Below, in pieces: positions 5,667-53,469 of a stretch of DNA of 64,000 bases (its first letter is position 1; each line of letters starts with the position of its first letter). The notes below the pieces were generated by a model, which was not told the DNA's origin, ran no database searches, and saw nothing but the letters and a program-made list of their open reading frames with translations. The stretch is from positions 4,592-68,591 of the forward strand of contig JBAYKL010000001.1 of assembly GCA_041664585.1 (NCBI GenBank), read 5' to 3'. The DNA comes from Minisyncoccota bacterium (GTDB taxonomy: Bacteria > Patescibacteriota > Minisyncoccia > Phycocordibacterales > GWA1-40-21). Position numbers and translations under genes: made by a program.

Positions 5667-5776
5667 TATGTTGTAAAATGGTGATGTTACGGGGAATCTA
5701 ACTATATATTCTCAAAGCATTCCTTTTTTAAAATGGTATTTTTTACAGATATAGTGTATAATGGTACATATATATT

Positions 5777-6436
5777 ATGGAAAGCAAGAAAAACCTAAAA
5801 TCAGAACATTTGAAGTTTGCGGTGCTCGCGGTGGATGCCGTTTGTTTTAGAGTGAAAGAAGGCGTTTTAGAACTTCTTTTGGGAAAAATTGGTTCGGACA
5901 ATAATATCTATAAGGGCCAGTGGGCACATATTGGCGGTCTGATATATTCAGAAGAGACGGCAGATCAGTCTGTGGATAGGCTTTTGGGAGACAAGGGGGG
6001 AATAAAAAATATTCACCGGGAGCAACTATATACATTTAGCGATATTGACCGTGATCCGCGCGGGCGCGTGGTCTCTGTGGCTTATATTGCACTTACAAAC
6101 AATGATGATATTCAAAATAAAAATGACGCAGAGTTGGAAACAAAATGGTGTCCGCTGAGTAATTTACCCAAGCTAGCTTATGATCATAATGAGATCACTA
6201 AAGTGGCTGTGGAGAGATTAAGATCAAAAATCATTTATACAGATATAGCCAAATATTTTATGCCAACAGAATTCACATTGTCCGAATTGCAAAAAGTGTA
6301 TGAGGCTGTGCTGGGGGAGGGGATGGACAAGAGAAATTTTCGAAAAAGAATTATTTCCTTAAATTTACTTAAGAATACAAAAAAGACTGTGAAGAAAGGT
6401 GTGATGCGTCCTGCCACTCTGTATACTTTTAAATAA
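5777..6436 (+). CDS. nrtR: NrtR-family transcriptional regulator (degenerate Nudix domain plus C-terminal winged HTH)
   Basis: The N-terminal Nudix fold has a degenerate box (GGLIYSEETADQSVDRLLGDKGG). The C-terminus (FTLSELQKVYEAVLGEGMDKRNFRKRI) matches the NrtR DNA-binding domain. It sits directly upstream of the NAD salvage genes. Confidence 0.75.
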   Translation: MESKKNLKSEHLKFAVLAVDAVCFRVKEGVLELLLGKIGSDNNIYKGQWAHIGGLIYSEETADQSVDRLLGDKGGIKNIHREQLYTFSDIDRDPRGRVVSVAYIALTNNDDIQNKNDAELETKWCPLSNLPKLAYDHNEITKVAVERLRSKIIYTDIAKYFMPTEFTLSELQKVYEAVLGEGMDKRNFRKRIISLNLLKNTKKTVKKGVMRPATLYTFK

Positions 6437-6545: not shown

Positions 6546-6616
6546 GGTATCGTGTGGGTATATAGTGTATCTAGAACAATATCTAGTTCTTTAACAATAA
6601 AACACGAGGGGGAAAT

Positions 6617-7531
6617 ATGAAAAAGAAAATCGGGATCGTTGTTGGAAGGTTTCAGACGCCGTATCTCCACGAGGGGCACATACACCTTTTGGACACTGCA
6701 CAAACCTTGAGTGAGAGGACTCTAGTAGTCCTCGGAGTAAGTAGTGGGTCGCCGAGTATAAGCAACCCGATGGATTTTGAAACACGGGCAGCGATGCTCA
6801 AGTTTCAGTATCCTGACGTAATGGTTGTTCCTTTGAGGGACATATTCAGTGACAAGGTCTGGTCCGAGCGGCTGGACGCGCTGATTGAGGAGTATAGCGA
6901 TGGTGGCGAGATCACTTTGTTTGGTTCGCGGGATAGCTTCAAAAGTTTCTACAGCGGAAAGTACCCGTTTCAAGAAATCAAAGAGAAGGTTGTCTGTAAT
7001 GCAACCGAAATACGCCGGCAGGAAGCGGATGGTATTCGCAACTCACCAGACTTCAGACGCGGTGTCATGTACGCCGTTACAAAACAAGTGTATCCGATCT
7101 CATATCAAACGGTTGATGTGGTGATCAGACACACTCTGGAGAACAAGGTGATCGTCGGTCGGAAGCTGGGCGAAAGCGCTTGGCGATTTCCGGGAGGGTT
7201 TGTAGATCCGAAGGATCAAAGCCTAGAACTTGCGGCCAAACGAGAGGTGGGGGAAGAAGTCGGCGATGTTGAGATAGACGATGTGAAATACATAGGCTCA
7301 ATACGGGTTGATGATTATCGCTATCGTAAATCGCAACACAAGATTATGACCGCGCTTTTCACGGCTGCATATGTTTGCGGTTCGTTGGAAGCAGGAGATG
7401 ATCTTGAGGAGGTTCGCTGGCAGGACGTTGATGGGCTCATGAGTTGCCTCGTTGAGGTGCATAAACCTCTGGGCGAGGCGTATCTAAAACATATCGGAAA
7501 GTATGAAATAAACAACAGAAAGGAAAGCTAA
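6617..7531 (+). CDS. nadM: bifunctional NMN adenylyltransferase / ADP-ribose pyrophosphatase (NadM-Nudix)
   Basis: N-terminal cytidylyltransferase fold with GRFQTPYLHEGH (HxGH motif). C-terminal Nudix domain (WRFPGGFVDP...KREVGEEVG). SD AGGGGG lies 7 nt upstream. GC-rich. Confidence 0.8.
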   Translation: MKKKIGIVVGRFQTPYLHEGHIHLLDTAQTLSERTLVVLGVSSGSPSISNPMDFETRAAMLKFQYPDVMVVPLRDIFSDKVWSERLDALIEEYSDGGEITLFGSRDSFKSFYSGKYPFQEIKEKVVCNATEIRRQEADGIRNSPDFRRGVMYAVTKQVYPISYQTVDVVIRHTLENKVIVGRKLGESAWRFPGGFVDPKDQSLELAAKREVGEEVGDVEIDDVKYIGSIRVDDYRYRKSQHKIMTALFTAAYVCGSLEAGDDLEEVRWQDVDGLMSCLVEVHKPLGEAYLKHIGKYEINNRKES

Positions 7532-8975: not shown

Positions 8976-9077
8976 TAATATTATTTATTAATTTCATAAA
9001 TGGTTAAATATATAAAAGAGTTAAGAACTGCTTATATTTTGTAAAATACAATAATAATGTTATATTAATTTCGCATT

Positions 9078-9149
9078 GGCCCCATCGTCTAACGGTTAGG
9101 ACGAAGCCTTCTCAAGGCTTAAATCGGAGTTCGATTCTCCGTGGGGTCA
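9078..9149 (+). tRNA. tRNA-Glu (anticodon CTC)
   Basis: A manual cloverleaf gives a 7-bp acceptor stem with one G-U pair, a D-arm gtct/ggac, an anticodon stem aagcc/ggctt with loop ttCTCaa, and a T-arm cggag-ttcgatt-ctccg. CCA is not encoded. Confidence 0.8.
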
Positions 9150-9160
9150 CCCGATAAAAA

Positions 9161-11647: not shown

Positions 11648-14600
11648 ATGAAAAATCAAAAACAATCCCAATATGACCACACAAAAATAGAAAAAAAGTG
11701 GCAAAAATATTGGACAGCAAAGAAAATTTACAAAACAACTGAAGATACTAAAAAAGAGAAACTATATGTTCTTGATATGTTTCCATATCCATCTGGTGTG
11801 GGTCTTCATGTGGGTCATCCTAGGGGCTATGTAGCTTCTGACGTTTACGCCCGTTTCAAAAGAATGAATGGCTTTAATGTACTTCACCCTATGGGTTACG
11901 ACGCTTTTGGTCTTCCTGCCGAACAATATGCTATTCAAAATAAAATACATCCTAAAAAAGCAGTTGAAGAAAATATTGAAACATTTAGAAAACAATTAGA
12001 TTTAATTGGTTTATCTTATGATTGGTCTCGTGTAGTAAACACAACTGATCCAAAATATTATAAATGGACACAGTGGATTTTTCTTAAGCTCTATGAATCT
12101 TGGTATAACAAAATAAGTAATAAAGCTGAACCCATTGAAAATCTTACAAAGTTTTTTGAGAAAGAAGGTAATCAAAATATTGATGCGGTTTGCGATTCTG
12201 ATATAAAAATATTTTCAGCTACAGAATGGAAATCTTTCAGTGATTTAGAAAAGCATAATATTTTAATGAAATATCGTTTAGCTTTCGAAGGTTTTTCAGA
12301 AGTTAATTGGTGTCCGGAAATGGGAACTGTTCTTGCGAATGATGAAATAATAGATGGACCAGATGGTAAACCAGTATCTGAAAGAGGCGGTTATCCCGTA
12401 GAGAAAAAAACATTGAGACAGTGGTTTTTGAGAATTACAGCCTATGCGGATAGACTTATAGAAGGATTAGATAGAGTAGATTGGTCTCAACACATAAAGG
12501 AAATACAAAAAAATTGGGTTGGAAAATCCATTGGTTCTGAAATAACTTTTGCTATAAAAGGTATGGAAGAAAAAATAAACGTGTTTACAACCAGAGCTGA
12601 TACTTTGTTTGGTGTTACTTACGTTGTTCTTGCTCCAGAGACTGATTTGGTAAAAAAGCTTTTATCAAAAATTTTAAATAGAAAAGAAGTAGAAAAATAT
12701 ATTGCGGACGTAAAACTTAAAACAGATGAGGATCGTATGAGTACTGTTAAAGAAAAAACGGGTGTGATACTCGAAGGTGTAAAAGCTATTAATCCTGCAA
12801 ATCAAGAAGAAGTACCAGTGTTCGTCGCGGATTACGTTCTAGCTACCTATGGTACGGGTATGGTAATGGCCGTACCTGCACATGATGACAGGGATTTTGC
12901 TTTTGCAAAGAAATATAATTTACCTATAAGAGAGGCTATCGTTCCAGAAAGAATAGACAAAAGAAACCCACCTGTTCCTGGTAAGAAAATTGTAGAAAGA
13001 AAAAATGTGCATGTGGTAGTTAAAAATCCAAAAACAGGAATGTATGTTGGTTTAAAATACAGAAAACACGATTGGACCACTTTCCCGATGGGTGGAATTG
13101 AAGAGGGAGAAAGTTTGATTGATTCTGCCAAGAGAGAATTACTTGAAGAGACTGGTTACAAAAATGTCACTGAGGGTGTTATTTTAGGTGGACAAGTTCG
13201 TGCGGAATATTTTGCTGCTCATAAGGATCAAAACAGAGTCTCTTATACAAATTTAGTGTATTTTGAGCTACTAGATGAAGAGAAAGAAAAAATTAGTGAT
13301 GAGGAAAATGAAGAACACGAAGTAATATGGCTTAGTGAAAAAGATATAAATTCAAGTTTGATGACTCACGCTGAAATGGATATTTGGCTTGATAGATTAA
13401 GCAAGGGGGATATTGCTTATACAGATAACGGTATTATGGTAAATTCCGGAGAATTTAACGGTTTAAATAATCTAGATGCAATAAAAAAGATTACAGATTT
13501 CGTTGGTGGAAAAATTGTTACTAAATACAAAATGCGTGATGCCGTATTTGCTCGTCAGAGATATTGGGGAGAACCCATTCCGTTAATACATAAAAAAGAT
13601 GGGACGATTTCTACTGTAAACGAAAACAAATTACCACTAGAGTTACCAAACGTTATCTCGTATGAACCTATTGGGAATGGTGAATCACCGCTTGCTGGTG
13701 TAAAAGATTGGGTAGAAAAAGGTTACGAAACAAATACAATGCCTGGTTGGGCAGGATCTTCCTGGTACTTCTTACGTTATATGGATCCACAGAATAAAAA
13801 AGGCTTTGTTGGAGAGAAAGCTTTAAAATATTGGAAACAGGTAGATATGTATGTAGGTGGTGCTGAGCATGCTACTGGGCATTTATTGTATTCAAGATTC
13901 TGGAATAAGTTTTTATTTGACTACGGGCTTGTTATTGAGGATGAACCATTCAAAGCTCTTAGGAATCAAGGAATGATACAAGGTTCTGATGGAAGAAGAA
14001 TGAGTAAGAGATGGGGGAACGTTGTAAACCCAGATGAGGTTGTAAAAAATGTCGGCGCAGATACTTTGAGAGTTTACGAATCATTTATGGGGCCTTTTGA
14101 GCAAGAAATTTCTTGGAGTACAGATAGTATGGTTGGATCAAGAAGATTCTTGGAAAGAGTATGGAAGCTTCAAGAAAAAGTAGTTGCAAATTTTGCAGAT
14201 TCAAGCGAAACAGAAGCACTTTTACACAAAACAATTAAAAAAGTTGGAGAAGATATAGATTCATTTAATGCAAACACAGCTATTTCTTCTATGATGATTT
14301 TGTTAAATCATTTAGATGGAATAGAGAGTATTAGCGAAGACTTATATTTGAATTACATAAAAATCCTTTCACCTTTTGCGCCACATATGTGTGAAGAAAT
14401 TTGGGCAAATTTGGAACAGAAGAAATCTATAGTATTAGCAGATTGGCCTAAGTATGATGAATCAAAAATAAAGTCTGCGAAGGTAAATATACCTGTGCAG
14501 ATAAACGGTAGAGTAAGAGCATCGCTTATTGTTGACACTGATCTTGACCAAACATTAGTAGAGAAGCTTGCTTTGGAAAATCCTGATGTTAAAAAATGGC

Positions 14601-14665
14601 TTGAAGGTAAAGAAATAAAGAAGAAAATATTTGTTAAAAACAAAATTTTGAACTTAGTAATTTAA
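11648..14665 (+). CDS. leuS: leucyl-tRNA synthetase with an inserted Nudix hydrolase domain
   Basis: HVGHPRGY (HIGH motif), the CP1 editing domain and KMSKRWGN (KMSKS motif) are all present. At 1005 aa it is about 150-200 aa longer than typical bacterial LeuRS. The insert at roughly nt 12945-13430 contains a perfect Nudix box GGIEEGESLIDSAKRELLEETGY. Confidence 0.9.
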   Translation: MKNQKQSQYDHTKIEKKWQKYWTAKKIYKTTEDTKKEKLYVLDMFPYPSGVGLHVGHPRGYVASDVYARFKRMNGFNVLHPMGYDAFGLPAEQYAIQNKIHPKKAVEENIETFRKQLDLIGLSYDWSRVVNTTDPKYYKWTQWIFLKLYESWYNKISNKAEPIENLTKFFEKEGNQNIDAVCDSDIKIFSATEWKSFSDLEKHNILMKYRLAFEGFSEVNWCPEMGTVLANDEIIDGPDGKPVSERGGYPVEKKTLRQWFLRITAYADRLIEGLDRVDWSQHIKEIQKNWVGKSIGSEITFAIKGMEEKINVFTTRADTLFGVTYVVLAPETDLVKKLLSKILNRKEVEKYIADVKLKTDEDRMSTVKEKTGVILEGVKAINPANQEEVPVFVADYVLATYGTGMVMAVPAHDDRDFAFAKKYNLPIREAIVPERIDKRNPPVPGKKIVERKNVHVVVKNPKTGMYVGLKYRKHDWTTFPMGGIEEGESLIDSAKRELLEETGYKNVTEGVILGGQVRAEYFAAHKDQNRVSYTNLVYFELLDEEKEKISDEENEEHEVIWLSEKDINSSLMTHAEMDIWLDRLSKGDIAYTDNGIMVNSGEFNGLNNLDAIKKITDFVGGKIVTKYKMRDAVFARQRYWGEPIPLIHKKDGTISTVNENKLPLELPNVISYEPIGNGESPLAGVKDWVEKGYETNTMPGWAGSSWYFLRYMDPQNKKGFVGEKALKYWKQVDMYVGGAEHATGHLLYSRFWNKFLFDYGLVIEDEPFKALRNQGMIQGSDGRRMSKRWGNVVNPDEVVKNVGADTLRVYESFMGPFEQEISWSTDSMVGSRRFLERVWKLQEKVVANFADSSETEALLHKTIKKVGEDIDSFNANTAISSMMILLNHLDGIESISEDLYLNYIKILSPFAPHMCEEIWANLEQKKSIVLADWPKYDESKIKSAKVNIPVQINGRVRASLIVDTDLDQTLVEKLALENPDVKKWLEGKEIKKKIFVKNKILNLVI

Positions 14666-14666
14666 T

Positions 14667-14704
14667 ACAACACGGCCGAGAGTTTAAACTCTCGGCCGTG
14701 TTGT
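14667..14704 (+). terminator. rho-independent terminator after leuS
   Basis: Perfect long palindrome acaacacggccgagagttt/aaactctcggccgtgttgt. Confidence 0.85.
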
Positions 14705-14814
14705 ATAATTATATATTATACAACAACACATTTGACTTTATTTCTAATGGGTGCTAATATCATTTCCATAAAGATATATCGTCAATATCAAGTTTTATTA
14801 ATAATTTTATTTGT

Positions 14815-52790: not shown

Positions 52791-52977
52791 CTAATACCTC
52801 CATCGCATCTTTTTTTGCTTCCATAGGCAGAACCTTTCGATTAATTTATTAGCCAGAAAGAACTATACTAATATTAAATCATGACCGGTTATTTAATACA
52901 AGATGCAGGGAAGTATGAATAGTTTTGATTGACAAAGACCCTTTTTGTACTAATCTTATATCAGATAAGGAGAAACT

Positions 52978-53469
52978 ATGACTAATGCAGTGCTAGTTTT
53001 ATATACGAGACTCAACCCTATAAATAGGCAACTCGAAGTGCTCTTTGCAAAAAAACACGCTGAAGCGAAAGTTGGTGCTGGTAAACTCAATGGCTACGGT
53101 GGTTGTATTGATCCAGGGGAAACTCCAGCTCAAGCAGCTATAAGAGAAACCAGTGAAGAAGCTGGTGAAAATTTCTTGGTACTTGAAAAAGATCTCAAAG
53201 CTAGAGGTATAATAACTTTCTATGATCATGAGATAAGACCAAAATGGAAAGTGTATATCTTTGTCTGCGACAGGTTCAGTGGCGAACCGAAGGAGTCCAA
53301 AGAGATGCTTGATCCCAAGTGGTTTGATGCAGATCAAATTCCTAAGCTCGATATACTACCAGCAGACAAACTATTCATGCCAAAGATTCTATCTGGCAAA
53401 ACCGTTCATAACGGATGGGTTATCTTCAAAAGGAACTTCAGCGGTGTTAGGGGATATGGTGGTTTTTAA
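52978..53469 (+). CDS. Nudix hydrolase (MutT-like)
   Basis: Perfect Nudix box GGCIDPGETPAQAAIRETSEEAG. AAGGAG SD. Confidence 0.8.
   Translation: MTNAVLVLYTRLNPINRQLEVLFAKKHAEAKVGAGKLNGYGGCIDPGETPAQAAIRETSEEAGENFLVLEKDLKARGIITFYDHEIRPKWKVYIFVCDRFSGEPKESKEMLDPKWFDADQIPKLDILPADKLFMPKILSGKTVHNGWVIFKRNFSGVRGYGGF

What the first reader, a model, noticed from the sequence alone, without database searches (positions are those of the whole stretch)
12945..13430. Intact Nudix hydrolase domain inserted into leucyl-tRNA synthetase
Canonical LeuRS goes almost directly from the post-editing-domain motif (KKYNLPI) to the conserved NSGEFNGL segment. Here about 160 aa are inserted between them. The insertion has Nudix-fold length and a letter-perfect Nudix box, GGIEEGESLIDSAKRELLEETGY (G-x5-E-x7-REUxEE-xGU), so it is probably catalytically competent.

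I do not recognise this architecture. aaRS enzymes generate aminoacyl-adenylates and Ap4A, and Nudix enzymes hydrolyse exactly such nucleoside-diphosphate-X compounds. A built-in hydrolase could clear leucyl-AMP or Ap4A, or act on the tRNA 3' end, or give proofreading-like activity.

It is also one of four Nudix domains in this 64-kb window.
Basis: partly seen in the sequence, partly recalled or inferred. Interest (0 to 1): 0.85.

Follow-up and report, generated by a model that had tools for sequence, protein, structure and literature searches.

The report
Nudix hydrolase nested inside leucyl-tRNA synthetase
A complete Nudix hydrolase domain with all its catalytic residues sits in a surface loop of the proofreading domain of an otherwise normal leucyl-tRNA synthetase; it is real, under selection and common in ultra-small (CPR) bacteria, it has moved between synthetase genes as a cassette, and its substrate is unknown.

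Summary

It is not a chimera. At least 80 species-representative genomes of Patescibacteria carry the module in LeuRS-sized ORFs. The catalytic residues are almost invariant across 181 copies, and dN/dS is 0.04.

- A syntenic relative whose LeuRS body is 91% identical lacks the module.
- Body and insert trees disagree (96/100 against 100/100 bootstraps), so the module has moved between LeuRS genes.
- Some LeuRS carry 2-3 Nudix domains. Others carry a Ham1, ASCH or alpha/beta-hydrolase domain next to CP1.
- The same Nudix subfamily is nested in an archaeal-type ProRS whose named relatives are DPANN archaea, and lies as a separate gene beside LeuRS, ArgRS/IleRS and MetRS genes.

Most likely it is an active pyrophosphohydrolase coupled to synthetase chemistry, with Ap4A-type by-products as the leading candidate substrate. 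None of this has been tested biochemically. I found no paper describing the architecture.

The parts
11648..14665 (+). Complete leucyl-tRNA synthetase gene (1005 aa plus stop)
   Evidence: ORF list. NCBIfam TIGR00396 leuS_bact scores 914.9 bits against a cut-off of 548.4. The AF2 model has pLDDT 89.9, and its best Foldseek match is E. coli LeuRS 5on2_A with TMt 0.82. It is 100% identical to the public protein P0154.
11807..11818 (+). HIGH motif (HVGH, aa 54-57) of the synthetic site
   Evidence: H54, V55, G56 and H57 are invariant in the 117-sequence alignment.
12509..12940 (+). N-terminal three quarters of the CP1 editing domain, up to the insertion point. Includes the Thr-rich motif TTRADT (12587-12604) and HDDRD (12881-12895).
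   Evidence: Pfam PF13603 matches aa 288-437, profile positions 1-146 of 185. T314, T315, R316, D318, T319, H412, D413, R415 and D416 are invariant.
12941..13414 (+). Inserted Nudix module (aa 432-589). It replaces the loop SGGNISEK of the closest insert-less relative.
12998..13369 (+). Pfam NUDIX domain match (aa 451-574)
   Evidence: PF00293, E 5e-14, 52.9 bits, gathering score 21.1.
13091..13159 (+). Nudix box GGIEEGESLIDSAKRELLEETGY (aa 482-504), which carries the metal-binding and catalytic Glu residues
   Evidence: Counts out of 181 nested copies: E497 181, E501 181, E500 178, R496 179, E488 179, G503 181.
13208..13237 (+). Subfamily-specific motif YFAAHKDQNR (aa 521-530), 17-26 residues after the box. 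Probably binds substrate (inference).
   Evidence: Y/F521 in 178 of 181 and K526 in 180 of 181. K99 and N102 (insert numbering) are invariant and R103 is conserved in at least 90% in alignment A3.
13415..13519 (+). Editing domain resumes (AYTDNGIMVNSGEFNGL...)
   Evidence: Aligns to T. thermophilus LeuRS residues 375-438 and to P0155 directly after its short loop.
13997..14011 (+). KMSKS-type loop (RMSKR, aa 784-788)
   Evidence: M785, K787 and R788 are invariant.
14665..14706 (+). Terminator-like hairpin with a 19-bp stem, directly after the stop codon

Best explanation
The window encodes a fully equipped bacterial LeuRS from a Paceibacterota (CPR) bacterium. A surface loop of its CP1 editing domain has been replaced by a whole 158-aa Nudix protein. 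Shown: the anatomy, and that the Nudix domain keeps every catalytic residue and is under strong purifying selection.

Inferred: the enzyme carries a third active site, a Mg-dependent pyrophosphohydrolase, beside the synthetic and editing sites. The module belongs to a Nudix subfamily that is specifically tied to aminoacyl-tRNA synthetases. It occurs nested in LeuRS (1-3 copies) and in an archaeal-type ProRS, and as a separate gene directly beside LeuRS, ArgRS/IleRS and MetRS genes. It has been exchanged between LeuRS genes as a domain-sized cassette, probably by recombination in the conserved flanks.

The module is not needed for leucylation itself, because close relatives lack it. The most likely job is to hydrolyse, on the spot, a nucleotide-pyrophosphate compound that arises from adenylate chemistry. 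Dinucleoside polyphosphates (Ap4A, Ap3A, Np4N, formed when aa-AMP reacts with ATP or an NTP) are the leading candidate, and cleavage would return usable nucleotides.

My estimates for each layer:
- nested architecture real: about 0.97
- catalytically active: about 0.8
- functionally coupled to synthetases: about 0.65
- ApnA as the substrate: about 0.3
For: Anatomy.

Real and widespread:
- Independent fragments share the same junctions.
- 198 relatives were found in species-representative genomes. The best 80 all lie in LeuRS-sized ORFs.
- 103 of the 120 best LeuRS homologues carry PF00293.

Selection:
- Box residues are invariant or nearly so in 181 copies.
- dN/dS is 0.039 for the insert and 0.083 for the body, window against L001.

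Host enzyme intact: HIGH, KMSKS, the Thr-rich motif and the HDxRD motif are invariant in 117 sequences with and without the insert.

Dispensable and mobile:
- P0155/L081 is syntenic, 91% identical in protein over the LeuRS body and about 87% in DNA, and has only a short loop at the site.
- The body tree puts the window with P0156-like LeuRS in 96 of 100 bootstraps. The insert tree puts it with P0180-like LeuRS in 100 of 100.
- The similarity switch coincides with the insert's borders.

Link to synthetases:
- 110 of the 153 best cluster representatives of this Nudix subfamily are LeuRS-linked.
- 5 of 8 stand-alone relatives checked lie beside aaRS genes. P0022 and P0076 lie 2 nt upstream of LeuRS, and the LeuRS next to P0076 has no insert. 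P0272 lies 12 nt after ArgRS and near an IleRS. P0039 lies near a ProRS that has the same Nudix nested in it (164.9 bits against the LeuRS-insert HMM). P0107 lies before a MetRS fragment.

Substrate lead:
- The weak best matches are to the RppH and ApnA-hydrolase branch.
- There is a conserved aromatic residue at +17 and a Lys at +22 after the box. Ap4A hydrolases use a loop-5 Tyr and a Lys to hold adenine and the P1 phosphate (PMC4734340, read).
- The same paper states that aaRS are the main source of ApnA.
Against: - No substrate was or could be tested.
- Similarity to ApnA hydrolases and RppH is weak and confined mostly to the box. All NCBIfam equivalog cut-offs are missed by a wide margin.
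- The best structural neighbour, 2azw_A, has no known function.
- The C-terminal half of the domain matches nothing in the PDB by sequence, so equating Y521 and K526 with the Ap4A-hydrolase residues is not established.
- One stand-alone relative lies next to Fpg, a MutT-like context.
- Ham1, a nucleotide-pool sanitiser, is nested beside CP1 in other LeuRS. This also fits a plain house-cleaning passenger.
- I could not obtain model coordinates, so the position of the Nudix active site relative to the synthetic site, the editing site and the tRNA is unknown.
- LeuRS is not recalled as a strong Ap4A producer (my own knowledge, not checked).
Confidence: 0.5

Rival explanations
1. House-cleaning passenger. 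The Nudix domain is an ordinary nucleotide-pool sanitiser (MutT-like or a general NTP/NDP-X pyrophosphatase). It has been lodged in a permissive loop of an essential, constitutively expressed gene in a very small genome, and has no mechanistic link to leucylation.
For: The module is present or absent among LeuRS about 91% identical in the body. The stand-alone relative P0050 lies 4 nt after Fpg. Ham1, which removes ITP/XTP, is nested beside CP1 in other LeuRS. JGI labels the stand-alone relatives 'MutT'. The window holds four Nudix domains, so Nudix enzymes are plentiful in this genome.
Against: The subfamily is overwhelmingly tied to synthetases: 110 of 153 representatives, and 5 of 8 stand-alone contexts. 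It recurs in an unrelated class II synthetase (ProRS). Up to three copies occur in one LeuRS. MutT-family models score far below their cut-offs.
Confidence: 0.25
2. RNA-end enzyme. The module works like RppH or NudC on the 5' end of tRNA-Leu or another RNA held by the synthetase. It would remove pyrophosphate or a nucleotide cap such as NAD or Np4A. LeuRS would serve as the RNA-binding platform, and the 5' end of the acceptor stem lies next to the 3' end that visits CP1.
Against: The RppH matches are far below the equivalog cut-offs (34-40 bits against 116-259). Mature tRNA normally carries a 5' monophosphate. No test of RNA binding was possible. The domain is just as similar to many small-molecule Nudix enzymes.
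Confidence: 0.15
3. Self-protection. The module destroys a nucleotide-type inhibitor of the synthetase, such as an aminoacyl-adenylate mimic delivered by competitors. In that reading it would be analogous to the GNAT-carrying IleRS type that NCBI distinguishes, whose role I infer by analogy only.
For: Patchy presence or absence, lateral exchange, variable copy number and mixing with other hydrolase domains resemble conflict-driven evolution. NCBIfam NF040702 'ileS_w_GNAT' shows that a class I synthetase with an extra enzyme domain exists.
Against: This is pure analogy. No inhibitor is known. dN/dS is very low rather than diversifying.
Confidence: 0.05
4. Non-catalytic module. The Nudix fold serves only as a ligand sensor or structural spacer, as in NrtR-type regulators.
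For: Non-catalytic Nudix domains exist. One NrtR-like protein lies in this window at 5762-6433.
Against: All catalytic Glu and Arg residues of the box are kept in 178-181 of 181 copies.
Confidence: 0.04
5. Assembly chimera, intein or transposon-borne insertion.
For: None found.
Against: The same in-frame junctions occur in many independent assemblies from ENA, JGI, NCBI and Logan. GC is 0.354 in the insert against 0.341 in the body. There are no intein junction residues and no Hint domain. There are no flanking direct or inverted repeats.
Confidence: 0.01

Closest known systems
Bacterial leucyl-tRNA synthetase (E. coli 4AQ7/5ON2, T. thermophilus 1H3N/2BYT)
   Same: Same family and fold (TIGR00396 915 bits; Foldseek TMt 0.82). 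HIGH, KMSKS, the CP1 Thr-rich motif and the HDxRD editing motif are all present.
   Different: A 158-aa Nudix domain replaces the 8-12-residue loop between T. thermophilus residues 362 and 375 of the editing domain. None of the 50 best-matching PDB chains, all LeuRS, is long enough to hold such an insert.
Stand-alone Nudix protein 2AZW (Enterococcus faecalis 'MutT/nudix family protein', function unknown)
   Different: Only 16% identity. It is free-standing and uncharacterised, so it says nothing about substrate.
RppH/NudH and Nudix Ap4A/ApnA hydrolases (E. coli RppH 4S2Y, lupin 1F3Y, P. falciparum 5CFI)
   Different: Scores are far below the family cut-offs. Similarity is mostly limited to the first strand and the box. 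The YFAxHKxxNR motif is specific to this subfamily.
NadM-Nudix type bifunctional enzymes (an example lies in this window, 6587-7528)
   Same: A Nudix hydrolase is joined in one polypeptide to an enzyme that works through an adenylyl transfer.
   Different: That is an end-to-end fusion. Here the Nudix is nested inside another domain of the host, and the host is a tRNA synthetase.
Class I synthetases with extra enzyme domains (NCBIfam NF040702, IleRS with a GNAT domain)
   Same: A precedent that a bacterial class Ia synthetase can carry an additional catalytic domain (listed).
   Different: Different domain type. I did not examine its position or function.

Membership tests
Nudix hydrolase superfamily (Pfam PF00293) | Profile score at or above the gathering threshold | tested here: met
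   52.9 bits against 21.1, E 5e-14, aa 451-574.
Nudix hydrolase superfamily (Pfam PF00293) | Nudix box G-x5-E-x7-R-E-U-x-E-E-x-G-U | tested here: met
   GGIEEGESLIDSAKRELLEETGY, aa 482-504. The final U is Tyr or Phe. Key residues are kept in 178-181 of 181 nested copies.
Nudix hydrolase superfamily (Pfam PF00293) | Alpha/beta/alpha sandwich Nudix fold | tested here: met
Nudix hydrolase superfamily (Pfam PF00293) | Divalent-cation-dependent hydrolysis of a nucleoside diphosphate linked to X | not testable with these tools
   Needs an enzyme assay.
Bacterial leucyl-tRNA synthetase (NCBIfam TIGR00396) | Equivalog score at or above the cut-off | tested here: met
   914.9 bits against 548.4.
Bacterial leucyl-tRNA synthetase (NCBIfam TIGR00396) | HIGH and KMSKS class I signature motifs | tested here: met
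   HVGH aa 54-57 and RMSKR aa 784-788. Both are invariant in homologues.
Bacterial leucyl-tRNA synthetase (NCBIfam TIGR00396) | CP1 editing domain with the Thr-rich motif and the conserved Asp | tested here: met
   PF13603 at 207.7 bits. TTRADT aa 314-319 and HDDRD aa 412-416.
Bacterial leucyl-tRNA synthetase (NCBIfam TIGR00396) | Leucylation of tRNA-Leu and hydrolytic editing | not testable with these tools
   Inferred from intact motifs. No other LeuRS paralogue lies in the 64-kb window, but the rest of the genome was not seen.
RNA pyrophosphohydrolase RppH (NCBIfam NF001934-NF001938) | Equivalog score at or above the cut-off | tested here: not met
   Best is 34.3 bits against a cut-off of 259, and 31.9 against 116. 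The match covers only the first strand and the box.
Asymmetric Ap4A/ApnA hydrolases (Nudix type) | Loop-5 Tyr that stacks adenine and contacts the P1 phosphate, plus a Lys a few residues on (PMC4734340) | tested here: inconclusive
   Y/F521 (+17 from the box) and K526 (+22) are conserved in 178 and 180 of 181 copies. No reliable alignment of this region to a solved Ap4A hydrolase was obtained.
MutT-type 8-oxo-(d)GTPases | Score at or above the family cut-off | tested here: not met
   NF052459 MutT1 scores 17.1 bits against a cut-off of 475. The JGI 'MutT' labels on relatives are generic.
Inteins | Cys/Ser at the N-junction, His-Asn plus Cys/Ser/Thr at the C-junction, and a Hint domain | tested here: not met
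   The junctions read REAI|VPER and GDI|AYTD. No Hint or intein Pfam hit.

The most novel reading that the evidence does not exclude
An aaRS-associated Nudix cassette family gives LeuRS of CPR bacteria, and an archaeal-type ProRS whose named relatives are DPANN archaea, an extra catalytic site. That site acts in cis on a product of the synthetase reaction (Ap4A/Np4N) or on the bound tRNA's 5' end. This would be a new kind of built-in by-product clearance or RNA-end processing in translation enzymes. The cassette would spread by domain-precise recombination between synthetase genes of episymbiotic microbes with reduced genomes.
Probability: 0.3. Interest if true: 0.85.

Novelty: new variant of a known kind. 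Interest (0 to 1): 0.68.

Why it matters
Bacterial aminoacyl-tRNA synthetases are usually regarded as architecturally conservative, and added catalytic domains are rare. Here a third, apparently active enzyme is nested in the editing domain of an essential synthetase in many lineages of the least-understood bacteria. It occurs in variable copy number, has sister insertions of Ham1, ASCH, alpha/beta hydrolase and histidine phosphatase domains, and has a counterpart in an archaeal-type ProRS.

If the module acts on Ap4A-type alarmones or on RNA ends, it would link tRNA charging physically to nucleotide signalling or salvage in organisms that cannot make their own nucleotides. The natural pair of LeuRS about 91% identical in the body, one with and one without the insert, makes this directly testable. 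The domain-precise lateral exchange is also a clean natural example of how nested multidomain proteins can evolve.

Tried and rejected
- Chimera or artefact: rejected, because of many independent assemblies, matching composition and purifying selection.
- Intein: rejected, because there are no junction residues and no Hint domain.
- Transposon-like insertion: no direct or inverted repeats at 12941/13414.
- RNA gene or antisense feature in the region: Rfam finds only tRNA-Glu at 9078-9149. I treat the antisense ORF 12847-13131 as a by-product of the coding frame; this was not tested.
- Assigning a Nudix subfamily by sequence: a single-sequence search and a profile search of the PDB, and NCBIfam, gave only weak, box-centred hits. 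The post-box half alone found nothing.
- The search for related loci with the fragment alignment A1 failed because no stretch was conserved enough. The single protein worked.
- Fold search against afdb50 was not available.
- I could not get model coordinates or PAE, so the docking of the Nudix domain on LeuRS and its distances to the active sites could not be measured.
- Six literature searches found no description of a Nudix domain in LeuRS or in any other synthetase. Absence from the held library does not prove the architecture is unpublished.
- Leucyl-AMP and the aminoacyl-tRNA 3' end were considered as substrates and judged unlikely, because neither has a pyrophosphate bond (established Nudix chemistry, not tested here).
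Full report
**1. What is in the sequence**

ORF 11648-14665 on the + strand encodes a 1005-aa protein. NCBIfam scores it as bacterial leucine-tRNA ligase, with TIGR00396 at 914.9 bits against a cut-off of 548.4. Pfam finds the class I catalytic domain, the LeuRS editing domain, the anticodon-binding domain and one NUDIX domain. The NUDIX match covers aa 451-574 with E 5e-14 and 52.9 bits against a gathering score of 21.1.

- KKYNLPI: aa 421-427
- Nudix box GGIEEGESLIDSAKRELLEETGY: aa 482-504
- NSGEFNGL: aa 599-606

The Pfam editing-domain model is interrupted at about position 146 of 185. The flanks align to T. thermophilus LeuRS residues up to 362 and from 375 onwards. So the extra segment lies inside the CP1 editing domain, 15 residues after the conserved HDxRD motif, not after the domain.

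The host enzyme looks complete. HVGH, RMSKR, the Thr-rich TTRADT motif and the HDDRD motif are all present, and they are invariant in 117 homologues.

The region holds no RNA family. The junctions have no repeats. Base composition does not differ from the rest of the gene. A 19-bp hairpin follows the stop codon.

**2. Is it real**

Yes.
- The window's protein is 100% identical to a public record, P0154, which NCBI names 'class I tRNA ligase family protein [Candidatus Paceibacterota bacterium]'.
- Independent fragments from ENA, JGI and Logan show the same two junctions.
- A scan of one genome per species found 198 relatives of the insert. The best 80 all lie in long ORFs that align with LeuRS along their length.
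- The named genomes are Patescibacteria/CPR lineages: Yonath-, Kaiser-, Taylor-, Yanofsky-, Wildermuth- and Moranbacteria. NCBI now calls the phylum Minisyncoccota.
- 103 of the 120 best LeuRS homologues carry PF00293.

Conservation across 181 nested copies, as counts out of 181:

| Residue | Copies that keep it |
|---|---|
| E497 | 181 |
| E501 | 181 |
| G503 | 181 |
| G482, G483 | 180 each |
| K526 (subfamily-specific) | 180 |
| R496 | 179 |
| E488 | 179 |
| R451 (subfamily-specific) | 179 |
| E500 | 178 |
| Y/F521 (subfamily-specific) | 178 |
| W561 (subfamily-specific) | 178 |
| E553 (subfamily-specific) | 171 |

Between the window and its sister L001, dN/dS is 0.039 in the insert and 0.083 in the body, at dS of about 0.7-1.0. 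This is a maintained and very probably active enzyme domain.

**3. What the comparison adds**

(a) *Presence or absence among near relatives.* P0155 (locus L081) is syntenic with the window: LeuRS is followed by the same Sigma70_r4 and CAP-domain genes. It is 91% identical in protein over the LeuRS body and about 87% identical in DNA. It is 855 aa long, and where the window has aa 432-589 it has only the loop SGGNISEK. More distant insert-less LeuRS (P0172, P0199) share the same kind of short loop. The short loop is therefore an inherited state, not a fresh deletion scar.

(b) *Different histories for insert and body.* The window's insert is 80-84% identical to the inserts of P0180-like LeuRS, whose bodies are only 64-69% identical to the window's. 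P0156-like LeuRS have closer bodies (75-77%) but more distant inserts (57-62%). Neighbour-joining bootstraps place (window, L001) with the P0156 group for the body in 96 of 100 replicates. For the insert they place it inside the P0180 group in 100 of 100. Similarity to P0180 falls from 0.76-0.93 inside the insert to 0.47 in the next 30 residues, so the mosaic borders coincide with the domain borders. There are no transposon-like repeats. The flanks (AVPAHDxRDxAFAKKYNLPI and AY..G..VNS) are strongly conserved. Recombination between LeuRS alleles is therefore the simplest mechanism, though this is inference.

(c) *Variable copy number and neighbouring insertions.* An exhaustive search with the insert found 476 cluster representatives at E up to 1e-3. 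Of the 153 proteins in hand, the best 150 of that search plus three fragments, 110 are LeuRS-linked. Some LeuRS carry two or three Nudix domains on either side of the CP1 core. At the N-side site, other LeuRS carry a Ham1, ASCH or alpha/beta-hydrolase domain while keeping the Nudix at the window's site.

(d) *A wider link to synthetases.* Eight stand-alone relatives were checked for gene context:

| Stand-alone relative | Context |
|---|---|
| P0022 | 2 nt upstream of a LeuRS gene that itself has a nested Nudix |
| P0076 | 2 nt upstream of a LeuRS gene with no insert |
| P0272 | 12 nt after ArgRS, and near an IleRS that has a nested histidine-phosphatase domain and is followed by another Nudix gene |
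| P0039 | 0.7 kb upstream of a ProRS with the same Nudix subfamily nested between the anticodon-binding and C-terminal domains (164.9 bits against the LeuRS-insert HMM) |
| P0107 | Directly before a MetRS C-terminal fragment |
| P0050 | 4 nt after Fpg |
| P0038 | Next to another Nudix gene, no synthetase nearby |
| P0087 | No synthetase nearby |

So five of eight lie beside synthetase genes. Only five proteins (P0297-P0301) show the ProRS-Nudix form. Their insert-less relatives are named Nanoarchaeota or Woesearchaeota, so this form appears to belong to DPANN archaea.

**4. How it most likely works**

*Shown.* The protein is a LeuRS with intact synthetic and editing sites, plus a nested, conserved Nudix domain. 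The domain is dispensable for LeuRS as such. Its subfamily is tied to synthetase genes.

*Inferred.* The domain is a Mg-dependent pyrophosphohydrolase acting on something the synthetase makes or holds. What LeuRS, ProRS, IleRS and MetRS share is adenylate chemistry and tRNA. Synthetases are the main cellular source of Ap3A and Ap4A, and Nudix enzymes are the usual hydrolases for them (PMC4734340). The insert's only named sequence relatives are RppH and ApnA hydrolases, although the matches are weak and fall below every family cut-off. It also has a conserved aromatic residue and a Lys after the box, where Ap4A hydrolases place the residues that bind adenine and the P1 phosphate. I therefore rank local removal of dinucleoside polyphosphates first, at about 0.3 for that substrate and about 0.5 for the broader claim of an active hydrolase coupled to synthetase chemistry.

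*Rivals.*
- A house-cleaning passenger. The Fpg context, the Ham1 co-insertions and the easy gain and loss favour it. About 0.25.
- An RppH-like activity on the tRNA 5' end. About 0.15.
- Detoxification of adenylate-mimic inhibitors. About 0.05.
- A non-catalytic module. About 0.04.

Leucyl-AMP itself is an unlikely substrate because it has no pyrophosphate bond. I could not read coordinates from the models, so the key structural question, where the Nudix site points, remains open.

**5. Comparison with what is known, and novelty**

By every feature I could test, the protein is a member of both bacterial LeuRS and the Nudix superfamily. It is not a member of the RppH or MutT equivalogs. The closest solved fold, 2AZW, has no known function.

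Fusions of Nudix to adenylyl-transferring enzymes are known; a NadM-Nudix type gene lies in this window. NCBI also distinguishes an IleRS with a GNAT domain. Six full-text searches found no description of a Nudix domain in LeuRS or any other synthetase.

The sequences themselves are public and automatically annotated, so this is not a new sequence family. I rate it a new variant of a known kind: a nested, mobile synthetase-Nudix architecture whose function is unexplored.

**6. Verdict**

The domain and its likely competence stand. The uniqueness claim does not, and the proposed substrates are untested.
- Interest is 0.68. A synthetase specialist would be surprised by a third catalytic domain nested in CP1 in so many lineages, by its cassette-like exchange, and by the parallel in an archaeal-type ProRS. 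The natural with/without pair makes the question directly testable.

Noticed in passing
window 5762-6433 and 6587-7528 (+): Adjacent genes for an NrtR-like regulator (Nudix plus NrtR winged-helix domain) and a cytidylyltransferase-like plus Nudix protein (NadM-Nudix type). This looks like an NAD-salvage module.
   Followed up: partly
window 52969-53466 (+): Stand-alone 166-aa Nudix protein (PF00293, E 1.7e-13). It is only distantly related to the LeuRS insert: E 2e-5 against the insert HMM, matching the box region only.
   Followed up: partly
L084/L085/L086, 3279-10316: A run of ArgRS, a Nudix gene, a small ORF, an IleRS of 1167 aa (TIGR00392, 868 bits) with a nested histidine-phosphatase (PGM/ribazole-phosphatase-like) domain at about aa 504-670, and another Nudix gene 2 nt after it.
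   Followed up: partly
L090 2762-4693 (P0297) and P0298-P0301: Archaeal-type ProRS (TIGR00408, 600 bits) with the same Nudix subfamily nested at aa 395-530. Its 480-aa relatives without the insert are named Nanoarchaeota or Woesearchaeota.
   Followed up: partly
P0240, P0269, P0224, P0013, P0212 (LeuRS homologues): A second insertion site on the N-side of the CP1 core carries Ham1 (P0240 aa 307-459), ASCH (P0269 aa 313-417), an alpha/beta hydrolase (P0224 aa 302-451; also P0013) or another Nudix (P0212). P0007, P0010 and P0035 have three Nudix stretches each.
   Followed up: partly
P0182 (977 aa LeuRS homologue): At the window's insertion site it carries a segment of about 120 aa that is not Nudix and has no Pfam match.
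   Followed up: no
L095 40-1218: A 170-aa Nudix ORF is followed after 40 nt by a 208-aa ORF that is only the C-terminal part of MetRS (metG profile positions 303-506). This could be a split or frameshifted MetRS with a Nudix, but the contig starts just before the Nudix ORF.
   Followed up: no
L010, L021, L048, L069; P0247: Contigs carrying CPR-type LeuRS-Nudix are filed under Thermodesulfobacteriota, Gammaproteobacteria, Fimivivens or Nitrospira. These are probably binning or labelling errors.
   Followed up: no
window 11648-14665: NCBI names this protein 'class I tRNA ligase family protein' rather than leucine-tRNA ligase, although it passes the leuS_bact equivalog cut-off. The insert may be confusing the naming rules.
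   Followed up: no
window 14665-14706 and 9077-9152: A 19-bp-stem terminator-like hairpin lies directly after the LeuRS stop codon. tRNA-Glu(CTC) lies about 2.5 kb upstream of the LeuRS gene.
   Followed up: no
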